Assembly: GCA_050259015.1 (NCBI GenBank)
Contig: JBLMZV010000017.1
Location: 1 to 43,940, forward strand
Source: Candidatus Saccharimonadota bacterium
Lineage (GTDB): Bacteria; Patescibacteriota; Doudnabacteria; UBA920; O2-02-FULL-48-8
Reading direction: 5' to 3'
Length of the DNA stretch: 43,940 bases
Position numbers and translations under genes: made by a program. Shown here in pieces: positions 4,077-8,150 of the stretch (position 1 is the stretch's first letter; the number at the start of each line of letters is the position of its first letter). The notes beneath the pieces were generated by a model. That model searched no databases, was not told the DNA's origin, and saw only the letters and a program-made list of their open reading frames with translations.

Positions 4077-4166
4077 GGAGAGGTCGCATAGTGGTCGAGT
4101 GCGCCGGTTTCGAAAACCGGTAAGGGCGCAAGCTCTTCGAGGGTTCGAATCCCTCCCTCTCCGCCA
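4077..4166 (+). tRNA. tRNA-Ser (anticodon CGA), CCA encoded
   Basis: Manual cloverleaf: acceptor GGAGAGG/CCTCTCC, anticodon loop TTCGAAA, long variable arm, T loop TTCGAAT, discriminator G73. Confidence 0.9.
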
Positions 4167-6929: not shown

Positions 6930-7358
6930 TTACAACTTGTTTTCATAAAGCCTGAGAAAAGTTGGCAGCTGTGAATGCAAGGGTTCCGGTAAACTTCCCA
7001 ACTCGAACCATTCCAAGGCGTCGAATTTATGCGGCTCATTGATCCGGACGTTTGCGGGGTCAATCAGGACCCTGAAATCCAAGCCGATCCAATGAGTCGG
7101 CTTGCCGTCGAGCGTGCGGTGTACGTCCCGATAGCCCAAAAATTCGAACGACAGCACTTCGGCGTTGTATTCCTCCAAAATCTCCCTGCGCAGGGACTCC
7201 TCCACCTTCATCCCGAATTCCAGGCCTCCCCCGCCGATATCCCACCGACCCTGTTCGTCCCGGGCGTTCTGGCTTCGCTTGGCCAGCAAAACCTTCCCCT
7301 GCCCGTCATGGCAGAAGAAAACCGTGGTCACTCCAATAAAATCAAGGCCTTTTTGCAT
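6930..7358 (-). CDS. NUDIX hydrolase
   Basis: Nudix box GGGLEFGMKVEESLRREILEEYNAEV. Start set at MQKGLDF. The N-terminal extension in the track is Arg/Gly-rich and overlaps a hairpin. Confidence 0.8.
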   Translation of the reverse strand: MQKGLDFIGVTTVFFCHDGQGKVLLAKRSQNARDEQGRWDIGGGGLEFGMKVEESLRREILEEYNAEVLSFEFLGYRDVHRTLDGKPTHWIGLDFRVLIDPANVRINEPHKFDALEWFELGSLPEPLHSQLPTFLRLYENKL

Positions 7359-7448
7359 GATCAAAGGATAACAAAAAACCGCCTTCCTGGCGATTTGAAC
7401 TCTGCCTGCACGCCCTCCACGCGCCCGCATCTATTATAATCTTGCATT

Positions 7449-7490
7449 TGGTCGGGGTGCAGGGAATTGAACCCTGTCTACACGCACCCC
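7449..7490 (-). pseudogene. exact copy of the 3' half of tRNA-Pro (anticodon loop through ACCA)
   Basis: 7446-7489 is identical to 7512-7555 (44 nt). Confidence 0.85.
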
Positions 7491-7514
7491 GCTCGCACCT
7501 ATTTATCTCATATT

Positions 7515-7588
7515 TGGTCGGGGTGCAGGGAATTGAACCCTGTCTACACGCACCCGAAGCGTGCGTACTACCGTCATACTCCACCCCG
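7515..7588 (-). tRNA. tRNA-Pro (anticodon CGG), CCA encoded
   Basis: Acceptor CGGGGUG/CACCCCG, anticodon arm CACGC-UUCGGGU-GCGUG, T arm CAGGG-UUCAAUU-CCCUG. Confidence 0.85.
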
Positions 7589-7620
7589 AACAAATATGAA
7601 ACAGATAATGTGCTGCAAGC

Positions 7621-7680
7621 AGGCGTGCGCAAGACTGTCCGAAGGACAGTCAGTACCGTCATACTCCACCCCGAACAAAT
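7621..7680 (-). pseudogene. 5'-half copy of tRNA-Pro with an inserted UUCG hairpin
   Basis: 7654-7680 is identical to 7569-7595 (5' flank plus positions 1-20). An 8-bp hairpin lies at 7633-7651. GCACGC-CU (position 26, anticodon-stem 5' strand, C32, U33) follows at 7628-7621. Confidence 0.75.
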
Positions 7681-7699
7681 GCAAAACCAAAATAGAAAT

Positions 7700-7811
7700 T
7701 GGAGGGTTGGCATGCGCCAGCTGCCTAAAAGGCAGCGAATACCGTAATACCCCACCCCCGAACAAATGCAAAACAAATATCTTGTAGTGCGGGGCAGGCC
7801 TGCGCCAACCC
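7700..7811 (-). other. tRNA-like shell enclosing a degenerate tRNA-Pro 5' fragment
   Basis: The ends GGGUUGG (7811-7805) and CCAACCC-U-CCA (7710-7700) are complementary. It has an anticodon-arm-like hairpin GCUGC-CUUUUAG-GCAGC (7736-7720) and no T arm. Confidence 0.45.
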
Positions 7812-7904
7812 AAAAAAGCTTACATATTATATCGGCAATTCCTGGTTTTGTCCAAATATAAAAGCCGGGCTGCCTTATGCAGCTGCCGGCTTACGACGAA
7901 TGGA

Positions 7905-8150
7905 TCATGCTGCCTCTCCTTTCAAAAAATCGAAGTCAGAGTACTTCCGGATGAGCCGTCGTTCGCATTCGTATAGGGTTTCCTCCAGTTTGTCGTTCAG
8001 GGCCCCGGAATCGATCAGATCCAGGAATTCCCGGTACCACTGCCGCAGTCCGGCCGCCTTGTCATTGTCAGGGGGACCGGAATCGGCCAAAAACCGCTCA
8101 GTTTCCCGCTTCAACCGCTCGACCTTGAGTACGTCTTGCCTGGTAGTCAT
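7905..8150 (-). CDS. hypothetical small helical protein (81 aa)
   Basis: Strong AAAGGAGG RBS and its own terminator hairpin at about 7866-7892. Confidence 0.65.
   Translation of the reverse strand: MTTRQDVLKVERLKRETERFLADSGPPDNDKAAGLRQWYREFLDLIDSGALNDKLEETLYECERRLIRKYSDFDFLKGEAA

What the first reader, a model, noticed from the sequence alone, without database searches (positions are those of the whole stretch)
7446..7811. tRNA-Pro(CGG) bracketed by exact copies of its own 5' and 3' halves, within a stack of tRNA-like shells
Reading the minus strand 5' to 3', the locus has these parts.

(a) 7811-7700 is a shell. Its ends GGGUUGG and CCAACCC-U-CCA pair like an acceptor stem followed by discriminator and CCA. 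It carries a perfect anticodon-arm-like hairpin, GCUGC-CUUUUAG-GCAGC, but no T arm. It encloses a degenerate copy (7775-7739) of the tRNA-Pro 5' flank, acceptor and D region.

(b) 7680-7654 is 27/27 identical to the 5' flank plus positions 1-20 of the intact gene (7595-7569). A perfect 8-bp UUCG-capped hairpin follows at 7651-7633. Then comes GCACGC-CU, which is G26, the anticodon-stem 5' strand, C32 and U33.

(c) A 32-nt leader (7620-7589), the intact tRNA-Pro (7588-7515), and a 24-nt trailer (7514-7491). Leader and trailer are complementary in three blocks: GCU..GCAC/GUGC.AGC, AUUAUCU/AGAUAAAU, and CAUAUU/AAUAUG.

(d) 7489-7446 is 44/44 identical to the intact gene from canonical position 35 through ACCA plus 3 flanking nt.

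Joining (b) to (d) gives the anticodon loop CUGGGGU, which would be a tRNA-Pro with anticodon GGG rather than CGG. This is the same nested architecture as the Val locus: an inner tRNA on a leader-trailer helix, inserted here at positions 33/34 of an outer tRNA.

The identity break in the anticodon loop is also where tyrosine integrases typically cross over. No integrase or island is present, and a 5'-half copy is not what a simple att scar leaves.
Basis: partly seen in the sequence, partly recalled or inferred. Interest (0 to 1): 0.75.

Follow-up and report, generated by a model that had tools for sequence, protein, structure and literature searches.

The report
Russian-doll tRNA-Pro gene, mobile-cassette relic
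A working tRNA-Pro gene sits inside two older, split copies of itself like a Russian doll. This is most likely the ORF-less remains of a mobile "spare tRNA plus small GIY-YIG nuclease" cassette that repeatedly invades tRNA genes in these ultra-small (CPR) bacteria.

Summary
tRNA-Pro(CGG) (7588-7515, minus strand) is flanked by exact copies of its positions 1-20 plus 7 leader nt (27/27) and of positions 35-76 plus 3 trailer nt (44/44). I also found a third, degenerate level. Each level has its own complementary leader and trailer. One promoter-like site and one terminator-like site bracket the stack. The predicted transcript folds as a cloverleaf inside a cloverleaf (z = -13.5).

The outer copy is not a spliceable tRNA-Pro(GGG). 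ARAGORN and Rfam reject it, and its "anticodon loop" is fully paired.

The same locus, next to a Wzy_C gene, varies among other Candidatus Doudnabacteria. It is plain in some species. In others it is nested, with an inner tRNA of a different sequence type from its shell. In one species it holds an 84-aa GIY-YIG nuclease gene between the outer 5' fragment and the tRNA. Relatives of that nuclease, sampled by protein, all lie within 275 nt of a tRNA gene. Most have hairpin-plugged partial tRNA copies beside them.

Independent unitigs from the source samples carry an allele that lacks one 87-nt unit.

Best reading (about 0.6): a relic stack from homing-type invasion by a tRNA-carrying cassette whose nuclease ORF has been lost. 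No cleavage or RNA data exist.

The parts
7826..7854 (-). Promoter-like site TGGACA-17-TATAAT, the only one in 7250-8000
   Evidence: 11 of 12 consensus matches. This is a consensus match only.
7797..7807 (-). TGGCGCAGGCC, a remnant of a G26 + anticodon-stem 5' strand segment from a possible fourth, outermost level
   Evidence: Direct repeat D4; coordinates. Homologous to 7719-7709 and 7632-7622.
7761..7796 (-). Level-3 leader. It starts with the stalk-base motif GCCCCGCAC.
   Evidence: The motif is shared with the leaders of L015 and L014 and with the level-1 leader.
7740..7760 (-). Level-3 5' half, a degenerate copy of tRNA positions 1-20
   Evidence: repeat family D1, third copy; 26 of 27 aligned positions with one gap, over the last 7 leader nt plus this segment; 0 of 2000 shuffles score as high.
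7720..7739 (-). Level-3 D-loop plug hairpin (GCUGCC-UUUUA-GGCAGC)
   Evidence: It sits in the same position after GGTA as the level-2 plug.
7709..7719 (-). Level-3 G26 + anticodon-stem 5' strand remnant (TGGCGCATGCC)
   Evidence: D4.
7674..7708 (-). Level-2 leader, complementary to the level-2 trailer
   Evidence: I1: 33 nt, 82%; cognate duplex -23.7 kcal/mol, z = -5.9 against non-cognate trailers.
7654..7673 (-). Level-2 5' half, an exact copy of tRNA positions 1-20
   Evidence: 27/27 when the 7 leader nt are included.
7633..7653 (-). Level-2 D-loop plug hairpin (8-bp stem)
7622..7632 (-). Level-2 G26 + anticodon-stem 5' strand remnant (TTGCGCACGCC). It pairs with the start of the level-2 3' half.
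   Evidence: pairing GCGCAC/GUGCGU and CCU/GGG.
7589..7621 (-). Level-1 leader (stalk, 5' strand)
   Evidence: I2; cognate duplex -24.4 kcal/mol, z = -6.1.
7515..7588 (-). Intact tRNA-Pro(CGG), the presumed working gene
   Evidence: 51 bits; gathering threshold 29.
7491..7514 (-). Level-1 trailer (stalk, 3' strand). It ends with the stalk-base motif GGTGCGAGC.
   Evidence: The motif is shared with L015, L014 and L033.
7449..7490 (-). Level-2 3' half: G at position 34, then an exact copy of positions 35-76
   Evidence: 44/44 when the 3 trailer nt are included. Together with the preceding C (7491, the last base of the level-1 trailer), it folds as an acceptor/T-arm minihelix, which explains the sub-threshold tmRNA and mascRNA hits.
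7427..7448 (-). Level-2 trailer
   Evidence: I1.
7392..7413 (-). Level-3 3' remnant (anticodon-stem 3' strand, variable region, T arm and T loop)
   Evidence: 18/22 identical to the intact gene; 1 of 2000 shuffles scores as high.
7373..7396 (-). Intrinsic-terminator-like hairpin plus T run, the only one in the region

Best explanation
The locus is a stack of relics left by a mobile tRNA cassette.

**The cassette.** It is a complete tRNA-Pro gene held on a leader-trailer stalk. A GC-rich hairpin ('plug') and a short anticodon-stem remnant precede it. In related genomes a small stand-alone GIY-YIG nuclease gene (75-116 aa) accompanies it.

**How it spreads (inferred).** The nuclease breaks a resident tRNA gene between the D loop (about position 20) and the anticodon loop (about position 34). 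The break is repaired from a cassette-bearing allele, using the tRNA's own positions 1-20 and 35-76 as homology arms. The resident gene ends up split around the cassette. The cassette's own tRNA replaces the lost function.

**Why it nests.** The inner tRNA is again an intact target, so the process can repeat and build a Russian doll. Here it happened at least twice. Level 1 is the working gene, level 2 is still sequence-perfect, and level 3 is decayed. The nuclease ORF has since been lost.

**At the RNA level.** The whole stack is probably one transcript. The level-specific stalks probably make each 5' half pair with its own 3' half, so that the inner pre-tRNA folds correctly and can be released by RNase P and 3' processing.

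**Shown:** the anatomy, the predicted fold, recurrence in other species, inner tRNAs of a different sequence type from their shells in other species, the nuclease-tRNA association, and a structural polymorphism.

**Inferred:** cleavage, homing, ORF loss, and RNA processing.
For: **Anatomy and fold**
- Nested order and exact copies.
- One promoter-like site and one terminator-like site bracket the stack.
- Cloverleaf-in-cloverleaf minimum-free-energy fold at -140 kcal/mol, z = -13.5.
- Leader and trailer are complementary only within a level. Level 1 gives -24.4 and level 2 gives -23.7 kcal/mol, against about -7 to -8 for non-cognate pairs. Plain loci give z near 0.

**The orthologous locus in other species**
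- The locus next to Wzy_C is orthologous across species representatives.
- It is plain in L020, L025, L012, L007, L008, L028 and L030. L005 has a single stalk-flanked tRNA with no shell.
- It is nested in L015, L014 and L019. L033 shows a 3' duplicate, but its Wzy_C adjacency could not be seen because the contig is cut.
- The inner and outer tRNAs are of different sequence types in L015 (inner GGAGCG-type, outer CGGGGTG-type), L014 and L033. The inner gene therefore differs from its shell and is not a local duplicate.

**The nuclease link**
- L017 has an intact 84-aa GIY-YIG ORF (Pfam PF01541, 59.9 bits) between a plugged outer 5' fragment and the tRNA.
- L007 has a GIY-YIG remnant 45 nt upstream of tRNA-Pro.
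- The ORF-less nest in L015 is homologous to the ORF-bearing nest in L156. They share a plug, and the inner tRNAs are 63/74 identical.
- Six contexts of this nuclease family chosen by protein alone all lie within 275 nt of a tRNA gene (Pro UGG, Pro GGG twice, Cys, Trp, Ala). Five of the six show hairpin-plugged partial tRNA copies (L154, L156, L161, L165, L166; L167 was not read).

**Break points and population data**
- Break points fall at the same D-loop GG(UA) position in ORF-bearing and ORF-less shells.
- One 87-nt unit is present or absent among reads from the source samples.

**Precedent**
- The GIY-YIG nuclease SegB cuts inside tRNA genes and drives local amplification (PMC13096335).
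Against: - The window, which is the whole 43.9-kb contig, has no GIY-YIG gene. The link to the nuclease therefore rests on homology with other species.
- These nucleases are a catalytic domain only, of the UPF0213 type. No activity or target specificity is known for them.
- The intact inner tRNA keeps the presumed target. How the element avoids cutting itself is unexplained.
- Causality could run the other way. Nucleases might colonise nests that already existed, using them as safe havens.
- In this window the inner and outer copies are the same sequence type. Local duplication followed by gene conversion is therefore not excluded here.
- The purpose and origin of the perfect GC-rich plugs are unexplained.
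- There are no RNA data.
Confidence: 0.6

Rival explanations
1. Local duplication without a mobile cassette. Recurrent breakage or slippage at the tRNA gene produced tandem duplications of an 85-88-nt unit on the 5' side and a 66-nt unit on the 3' side. Unequal crossing-over then changes the copy number.
For: - The spacings are regular: 85, 86 and 88 nt on the 5' side and 66 nt on the 3' side.
- An allele lacking exactly one 87-nt unit coexists in the population.
- In this window the inner and outer copies are identical in sequence type.
- SegB-type breaks are known to cause segmental amplification.
Against: - Independent tandem duplications on the two sides do not predict leader-trailer complementarity that is specific to each level and differs in sequence between levels.
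- Homologous nests in L015, L014 and L033 have an inner tRNA of a different sequence type from the shell.
- The units differ too much from each other to be recent duplicates: the third copy is only 68% identical and the plugs are different.
Confidence: 0.15
2. A functional nested RNA. The shells would be selected parts of a structured precursor or a stable tRNA-like RNA, acting as a processing or folding scaffold, a decoy, or a partner RNA for the nuclease. They would not be relics.
For: - The predicted structure is exceptionally strong (z = -13.5).
- The plugs are perfect hairpins and always sit in loops.
- The level-2 halves show no substitutions.
- The outer 3' half in L015 is identical to the lineage consensus even though the inner tRNA is a different type.
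Against: - The distribution at an orthologous locus is patchy.
- Level 3 has decayed.
- Rfam has no matching family.
Confidence: 0.1
3. An ordinary attL/attR scar. An integrase-borne island integrated into tRNA-Pro at the anticodon loop and was later deleted.
For: - The 3' duplicate starts in the anticodon loop, a classic crossover region. This rests on general knowledge of integrases, not on a test here.
- In L154 a large serine recombinase gene abuts a tRNA-Pro gene.
Against: - No integrase is present in this window. Pfam finds nothing in the neighbouring ORFs other than Wzy_C and RNase HII.
- Both a 5' and a 3' duplicate are present, and they are nested.
- Only 24-33 nt separate the copies, and those nucleotides form a conserved stalk.
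- The same compact form occurs in several species.
Confidence: 0.07
4. An intron-containing tRNA-Pro(GGG). The inner tRNA and its stalk would be excised and the outer halves joined into a second functional tRNA.
For: Joining the halves gives a 7-nt loop, CUGGGGU, with G37 (read directly from the sequence). The outer acceptor stem and T arm are intact.
Against: - ARAGORN rejects the joined sequence with or without the plug, and finds no intron-containing tRNA in the native sequence.
- The canonical D-stem 3' strand (GUAC after the D loop) is displaced by a hairpin; only an altered D arm with a 4-nt loop can form.
- The junction lies in a continuous helix with no bulge-helix-bulge motif, and CCU pairs with GGG.
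- No group I intron or other intron family is detected.
- The outer copy in L015 cannot be restored by simple excision.
Confidence: 0.05

Closest known systems
SegB of T-even phages, a free-standing GIY-YIG homing endonuclease in the tRNA gene cluster
   Same: It is a GIY-YIG nuclease gene next to tRNA genes. It cuts inside tRNA genes: its cleavage motif RAWTSGAAC is, by my own reading, the reverse complement of the T-loop consensus. Its breaks lead to local duplication of tRNA-containing segments, and the copy number is unstable (PMC13096335).
   Different: SegB is roughly 2-3 times longer and has a C-terminal region whose truncation abolishes its toxicity; that this region binds DNA, and its ~220-aa length, are my recollection. 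The proteins here are 75-116 aa and carry the catalytic domain only. SegB lives in phage genomes and produces tandem amplification. It does not produce nested split genes, stalks or hairpin plugs. The elements here are chromosomal, in CPR bacteria and in one Bacteroidota-like contig.
Allomyces macrogynus mitochondrial atp6 with the GIY-YIG ORF360 mobile element (Paquin, Laforest and Lang 1994; recalled from memory, not read here)
   Same: A free-standing GIY-YIG gene invades an essential gene and carries a foreign replacement copy of part of that gene. The displaced resident part remains as a nearby pseudogene fragment.
   Different: The target there is a protein-coding gene, and only its 3' end is replaced. 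There is no nesting, no RNA stalk and no recursion.
Integration of genomic islands or prophages into tRNA genes (attL/attR)
   Same: Partial tRNA copies flank an insertion. The break lies in the anticodon loop, and the tRNA gene is restored by sequence that the element brings.
   Different: There is no integrase here. The insert is about 130 nt and is itself a whole tRNA on a helix. Both halves are duplicated, and the arrangement is nested several levels deep.
Archaeal split, permuted and multi-intron tRNA genes (Nanoarchaeum; Thermoproteales)
   Same: tRNA genes are interrupted in the D and anticodon loops. Leader-trailer helices bring the halves together.
   Different: Those are spliced at bulge-helix-bulge motifs into functional tRNAs. 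Here no such motif is present, the organism is bacterial, and the outer copy cannot be restored to a tRNA.
Bacterial group I introns in tRNA anticodon loops, some carrying homing endonuclease genes
   Same: An insertion in the anticodon loop of a bacterial tRNA gene, sometimes with a nuclease ORF. It spreads by homing.
   Different: No ribozyme core is detected. Function is kept by a spare gene copy, not by splicing.

Membership tests
tRNA (Rfam RF00005): inner gene | Cloverleaf scoring above the family's gathering threshold | tested here: met
   51 bits against a threshold of 29. ARAGORN calls Pro(CGG).
tRNA (RF00005): outer copy (levels 2 and 3) | Recognisable as a tRNA, either natively or after the insert is removed | tested here: not met
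   Rfam finds no hit, even at E-values up to 10. ARAGORN finds nothing in the joined constructs and no intron-containing tRNA.
Free-standing GIY-YIG homing-endonuclease element | A GIY-YIG ORF inside or beside the insertion | tested here: not met
   None in the window (motif scan; tblastn with five family members). The feature is met in homologous loci: L017, L154, L156, L161, L005, L165 and L166.
Free-standing GIY-YIG homing-endonuclease element | Presence or absence at an orthologous site across lineages, with the invading sequence of outside origin | tested here: met
   The locus next to Wzy_C is plain, nested or ORF-bearing in different species. The inner tRNA type differs from the outer type in L015, L014 and L033.
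Free-standing GIY-YIG homing-endonuclease element | The nuclease cleaves the element-free allele | not testable with these tools
   This needs biochemistry. The only analogy available is SegB.
Integrase-mediated tRNA-gene integration (att scar) | An integrase or recombinase gene and island cargo between direct repeats of one tRNA end | tested here: not met
   Pfam on the neighbouring ORFs finds only Wzy_C and RNase HII. The inserts are 24-33 nt plus a tRNA.
Group I intron in a tRNA anticodon loop | A group I ribozyme core | tested here: not met
   No Rfam intron family matches at the gathering threshold or at E-values up to 10.
Archaeal-type bulge-helix-bulge intron or split tRNA | Two 3-nt bulges separated by 4 bp at the exon-intron junctions | tested here: not met
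   The junctions lie in a continuous helix with a single bulged G.
MITE or insertion sequence | Terminal inverted repeats plus a target-site duplication, with a transposase somewhere | tested here: inconclusive
   The leader and trailer are inverted repeats. No target-site duplication is visible at 7622/7621 and 7491/7490. No transposase is present on the contig near the locus.

The most novel reading that the evidence does not exclude
Stand-alone UPF0213-type GIY-YIG nucleases (about 80 aa, function unknown) may be the engines of a previously undescribed class of tRNA-gene homing elements. Such an element would carry a spare tRNA on an RNA stalk in place of an intron. It would use the tRNA's own halves as universal homology arms, and repeated invasion would build Russian-doll tRNA genes.

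All observed break points fall in single-stranded parts of the cloverleaf: position 9/10, the D loop, the anticodon loop and the T loop. The nuclease might therefore recognise tRNA-shaped DNA, such as the displaced strand of a transcribed tRNA gene, and not a particular sequence.
Probability: 0.35. Interest if true: 0.85.

Novelty: new variant of a known kind. Interest (0 to 1): 0.72.

Why it matters
- **A third strategy for selfish elements.** It would show a new way for a selfish element to live inside an essential RNA gene. Introns splice themselves out, and integrases restore one end of the gene. This element would instead bring a complete spare gene and leave the old one as a shell.
- **A role for an orphan protein family.** It would give a first biological role to a widespread family of small GIY-YIG proteins of unknown function.
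- **Annotation.** It would explain the puzzling tRNA fragments and tRNA-like hairpins in CPR genomes, and would matter for tRNA annotation and for binning.
- **Horizontal replacement of tRNA genes.** It would provide a natural system in which tRNA genes are replaced horizontally between lineages.
- **RNA folding.** The nested transcript is also a striking test case, because identical halves must each pair with the correct partner.

Tried and rejected
1. A gapped pattern, CCGACCA-N(12-42)-GGGTGCRYGNAGAC, was scanned against the metagenome collection. It returned 120 rows, all random GC-rich coding matches.
2. A viral-contig scan for the tRNA-Pro 3' half found 0 hits. A viral scan for the nuclease gave one weak partial hit. 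There is therefore no evidence of a phage vector.
3. Five literature searches found no description of nested tRNA genes or of a GIY-YIG/tRNA association in CPR bacteria. Only the SegB paper was relevant.
4. A 14-nt match to the tRNA 3' end at 26464-26451 lies inside a coding region and was set aside as chance.
5. The sub-threshold tmRNA, permuted-tmRNA and mascRNA hits on the 3' duplicate are explained by the acceptor/T-arm minihelix that forms because CGGGGUG recurs at the junction. They are not a tmRNA.
6. Look-ups of the Mur ligase and NUDIX proteins returned only short unitigs of the same organism.
7. The run of 100 N after tRNA-Pro in L031 was treated as a scaffold gap and not interpreted.
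Full report
**1. What is there**

On the minus strand ARAGORN and Rfam find one canonical tRNA-Pro(CGG) at 7588-7515 (51 bits). 7680-7654 equals 7595-7569 (27/27). 7489-7446 equals 7555-7512 (44/44). Both are maximal matches, and neither can be chance in a 44-kb window (E = 2e-6 and 7e-19).

The repeat finder adds two regularities. The 5' flank plus 5' half occurs three times, 85-86 nt apart, and the third copy is degenerate. The 3' part occurs twice, 66 nt apart.

I also found a third-level 3' remnant at 7413-7392. It is 18/22 identical to the intact gene, and only 1 of 2000 shuffles scores as high.

Read 5' to 3', the locus is:

- promoter-like site (TGGACA-17-TATAAT, 7854-7826);
- an anticodon-stem remnant;
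- level-3 leader, 5' half, hairpin plug and anticodon-stem remnant;
- level-2 leader, 5' half, plug and anticodon-stem remnant;
- level-1 leader, intact tRNA and trailer;
- level-2 3' half and trailer;
- level-3 3' remnant;
- terminator (7396-7373).

The order is strictly nested.

**2. RNA-level structure**

Each level has its own leader-trailer complementarity. The inverted repeats are 29 nt at 83% (level 1) and 33 nt at 82% (level 2).

I compared cognate and non-cognate leader-trailer duplex energies across 29 units from this window and from related loci. The cognate pairs stand out:

| Unit | Cognate duplex (kcal/mol) |
|---|---|
| Window level 1 | -24.4 |
| Window level 2 | -23.7 |
| L015 inner | -34.2 |
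| L005 | -25.3 |

Non-cognate pairs give about -6 to -8 (z about -6 for the cognate pairs). Plain tRNA-Pro loci give z near 0. The helices therefore differ in sequence but keep their pairing.

The 271-nt stretch 7700-7430 folds, with no constraints, into a cloverleaf inside a cloverleaf at -140 kcal/mol. Shuffles give -81 +/- 4, so z = -13.5. The outer anticodon stem runs without a loop into the level-1 stalk (CCU pairs with GGG) and on to the inner acceptor stem.

**3. The outer copy is not a spliceable tRNA**

- ARAGORN finds no tRNA when the insert is removed in silico, with or without the plug. It also finds no intron-containing tRNA in the native sequence.
- Rfam reports no intron or other family, even at E-values up to 10.
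- The sub-threshold tmRNA and mascRNA hits reflect only an acceptor/T-arm minihelix in the 3' duplicate.

**4. It is real and polymorphic**

The window is the whole contig of an NCBI MAG labelled Candidatus Saccharibacteria. Independent k=31 unitigs from two runs break inside the 44-nt repeat.

A unitig from SRR24085918 matches the window from 8160 to 7775, then continues at 7687-7565, with 0 mismatches. A unitig from SRR24085919 stops at 7756, exactly where the two alleles diverge. The shared repeat there is only 18 nt, shorter than k, so this is a true coexisting allele. The outermost unit is dispensable.

**5. Related genomes**

A scan of GTDB species representatives for the tRNA-Pro 3' half gave 27 loci, mostly Candidatus Doudnabacteria. 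The neighbouring Wzy_C gene shows that the locus is orthologous in at least 14 of them. Its state is patchy.

- **Plain** (promoter, tRNA, terminator): L020, L025, L012, L007, L008, L028 and L030.
- **Single stalk-flanked tRNA, no shell:** L005, the closest syntenic relative (NUDIX 73% identical).
- **Nested:**
  - L015 has an outer CGGGGTG-type gene split by two plugs. It encloses a 17-bp stalk that carries a different tRNA-Pro(CGG) of GGAGCG type. The minimum-free-energy fold is again nested.
  - L014 and L033 have an inner CGGGCTG-type gene with outer fragments of CGGGATG type.
  - L019 has an outer 5' fragment that breaks after GGTA, followed by hairpins, and an outer 3' end reduced to a hairpin plus AGCCCGACCA.
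- **Shared stalk base:** the bases of the stalks share a motif (YCCYGCAC ... GGTGCGRG) in the window (levels 1 and 3), L015 and L014; in L033, whose leader is cut off by the contig end, only the trailer half (GGTGCGGGG) is seen.

Different inner and outer types in three species mean that the inner gene differs from its shell and is not a local duplicate.

**6. The nuclease link**

In L017, at the same locus, an intact 84-aa ORF lies between a plugged outer 5' fragment (which ends at GTACGCAC) and the tRNA. Its stop codon falls in the tRNA D loop. The ORF is a GIY-YIG catalytic domain and nothing else (Pfam 59.9 bits). Its nearest solved relatives are UPF0213 proteins of unknown function.

Its homologues are 75-116 aa. 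I sampled six contexts chosen by protein alone:

| Locus | Arrangement |
|---|---|
| L154 | Plugged 5' fragment, ORF, then tRNA-Pro(UGG), overlapping the ORF by 23 nt |
| L161-L164 | 5' fragment with D-loop and anticodon-loop plugs, ORF, tRNA-Pro(GGG) |
| L156-L160 | Outer 5' fragment, inner tRNA-Pro(GGG), ORF, plugged outer 3' part |
| L166 | Plugged pseudo-tRNA-Trp, ORF, tRNA-Trp |
| L165 | Bacteroidota-like contig: plugged pseudo-tRNA-Cys copies alternating with two ORFs |
| L167 | tRNA-Ala 275 nt away |

Further links:

- L005 has the same arrangement at tRNA-Ser.
- L007 has a GIY-YIG remnant 45 nt upstream of tRNA-Pro.
- The D-loop plug is homologous among L017, L154 and L161.
- The ORF-less nest in L015 aligns with the ORF-bearing nest in L156. 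They share a plug, and the inner tRNAs are 63/74 identical.

If tRNA genes occur about once per 20 kb (my assumption), the chance of lying within 275 nt of one is about 3% per gene. Six out of six is therefore far beyond chance (inference).

The window itself has no GIY-YIG gene and no integrase nearby.

**7. Mechanism proposed**

The cassette consists of plug, anticodon-stem remnant, leader, tRNA and trailer, with or without the nuclease ORF. I propose that it spreads by break repair. The resident tRNA gene is cut between about position 20 and position 34. Its own positions 1-20 and 35-76 then invade the matching outer arms of a cassette-bearing allele, and everything between the arms is copied.

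This explains several observations:

- The identity breaks fall exactly at 20/21 and 34/35.
- The outer arms are sequence-perfect and of the type usual in the lineage (for L015 they match the lineage consensus), while the inner gene can be of a different type.
- The anticodon-stem remnant is diverged.
- The unit sizes are 85-88 nt and 66 nt.
- The process recurses. The inner tRNA is a fresh target, so yesterday's inner gene, with its stalk, becomes today's shell.

The stalks plausibly force correct partner choice among identical halves in the co-transcript. This would account for the level-specific complementarity.

Cleavage, homing, ORF loss and RNA processing are all inferred. None of them is shown here. 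SegB is a precedent: a GIY-YIG nuclease that cuts inside tRNA genes and drives unstable local amplification (PMC13096335).

**8. Weak points**

- The nuclease is absent from this contig.
- It has only a catalytic domain.
- The inner tRNA should remain cleavable.
- The plugs are unexplained.
- Nucleases might be colonists of nests, not their makers.
- In this window local duplication plus gene conversion cannot be excluded.

**9. Verdict**

The nested reading is right, and the spliced tRNA-Pro(GGG) idea is not supported. The most likely identity is an ORF-less, three-level relic of a mobile tRNA cassette linked to a small GIY-YIG nuclease (confidence about 0.6). I found no description of such nests in the literature searched.

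Noticed in passing
window 15290-15030 (-): The tRNA-Val(UAC) gene at 15236-15160 sits on a stalk of about 16 nt per strand, with one internal mismatch (TCCTCCTTCGCTTTTAT / TAAAAGCTTCGGAGGA). The stalk is inserted in the D loop, after GGTTA, of an outer Val-like shell (GGACGCT...AGCGTCC-A-CCA). The shell's anticodon loop carries a GC-rich plug. The break points are the same as at the Pro locus, with the roles swapped. The fold z-score is only -2.2.
   Followed up: partly
window 6099-6063 (-): Downstream of tRNA-Ala(GGC) there is a perfect hairpin (ACACCCGCCGAACGGCGGGGTGT), followed by an exact 11-nt copy of the acceptor 3' strand plus ACCA (AGGGTCCACCA), and then the terminator. It looks like the 3' end of an old shell. 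No 5' partner was seen.
   Followed up: partly
L005 5340-5850: In the closest syntenic relative, tRNA-Ser(CGA) is nested. The order is promoter, outer 5' fragment with two D-loop hairpins, a 90-aa GIY-YIG ORF ending a few nt (1-4) before the tRNA, the tRNA, further hairpins, and ...CCTCCCGTCTCCGCCA. In this window the tRNA-Ser locus (4077-4166) is plain.
   Followed up: partly
L013, L018 and L009 (about 20-160 nt downstream of tRNA-Pro); L031: This is a different kind of insertion. After the intact tRNA comes a stretch of roughly 135-160 nt (including a short spacer) that contains an inverted copy of the T arm (GGGAATTGAAC; GGGAATTGAAG in L009). A direct copy of the tRNA 3' end follows: 20 nt from the T loop in L013 and L018, 15 nt in L009. 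In L031 this stretch is a run of 100 N.
   Followed up: no
L165 2270-3120: This contig looks Bacteroidota-like, because a neighbouring gene carries a Por_Secre_tail domain. It carries tandem units of [terminator, 75-aa GIY-YIG ORF, 5'-truncated pseudo-tRNA-Cys]. In each pseudo-tRNA a plug (CCCCGATATTTATCGGGG) replaces the stretch from the anticodon loop to the T stem. The phenomenon is therefore not confined to CPR bacteria.
   Followed up: partly
L154 1761-3264: A 528-aa large serine recombinase gene (Resolvase + Recombinase domains) abuts and overlaps the 3' side of a tRNA-Pro(UGG) that already has a GIY-YIG cassette on its 5' side.
   Followed up: no
window 7581-7580 (-), and relatives: This tRNA-Pro(CGG) family has G at position 8 in many species (GGAGUAU), where U8 is nearly universal. 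Other species have U8 (GUAGUAU). The D loop is one nucleotide short.
   Followed up: no
L015, downstream of the nest: The NUDIX gene that follows tRNA-Pro in this window, L005 and L026 is truncated in L015. Only residues 59-142 align. This suggests a deletion next to the nest.
   Followed up: no
whole window: NCBI labels the MAG Candidatus Saccharibacteria. Its tRNA-Pro, its synteny, and the few named NUDIX relatives (Doudnabacteria, Komeilibacteria, Nomurabacteria, Parcubacteria) instead point to Candidatus Doudnabacteria and their Patescibacteria relatives.
   Followed up: no
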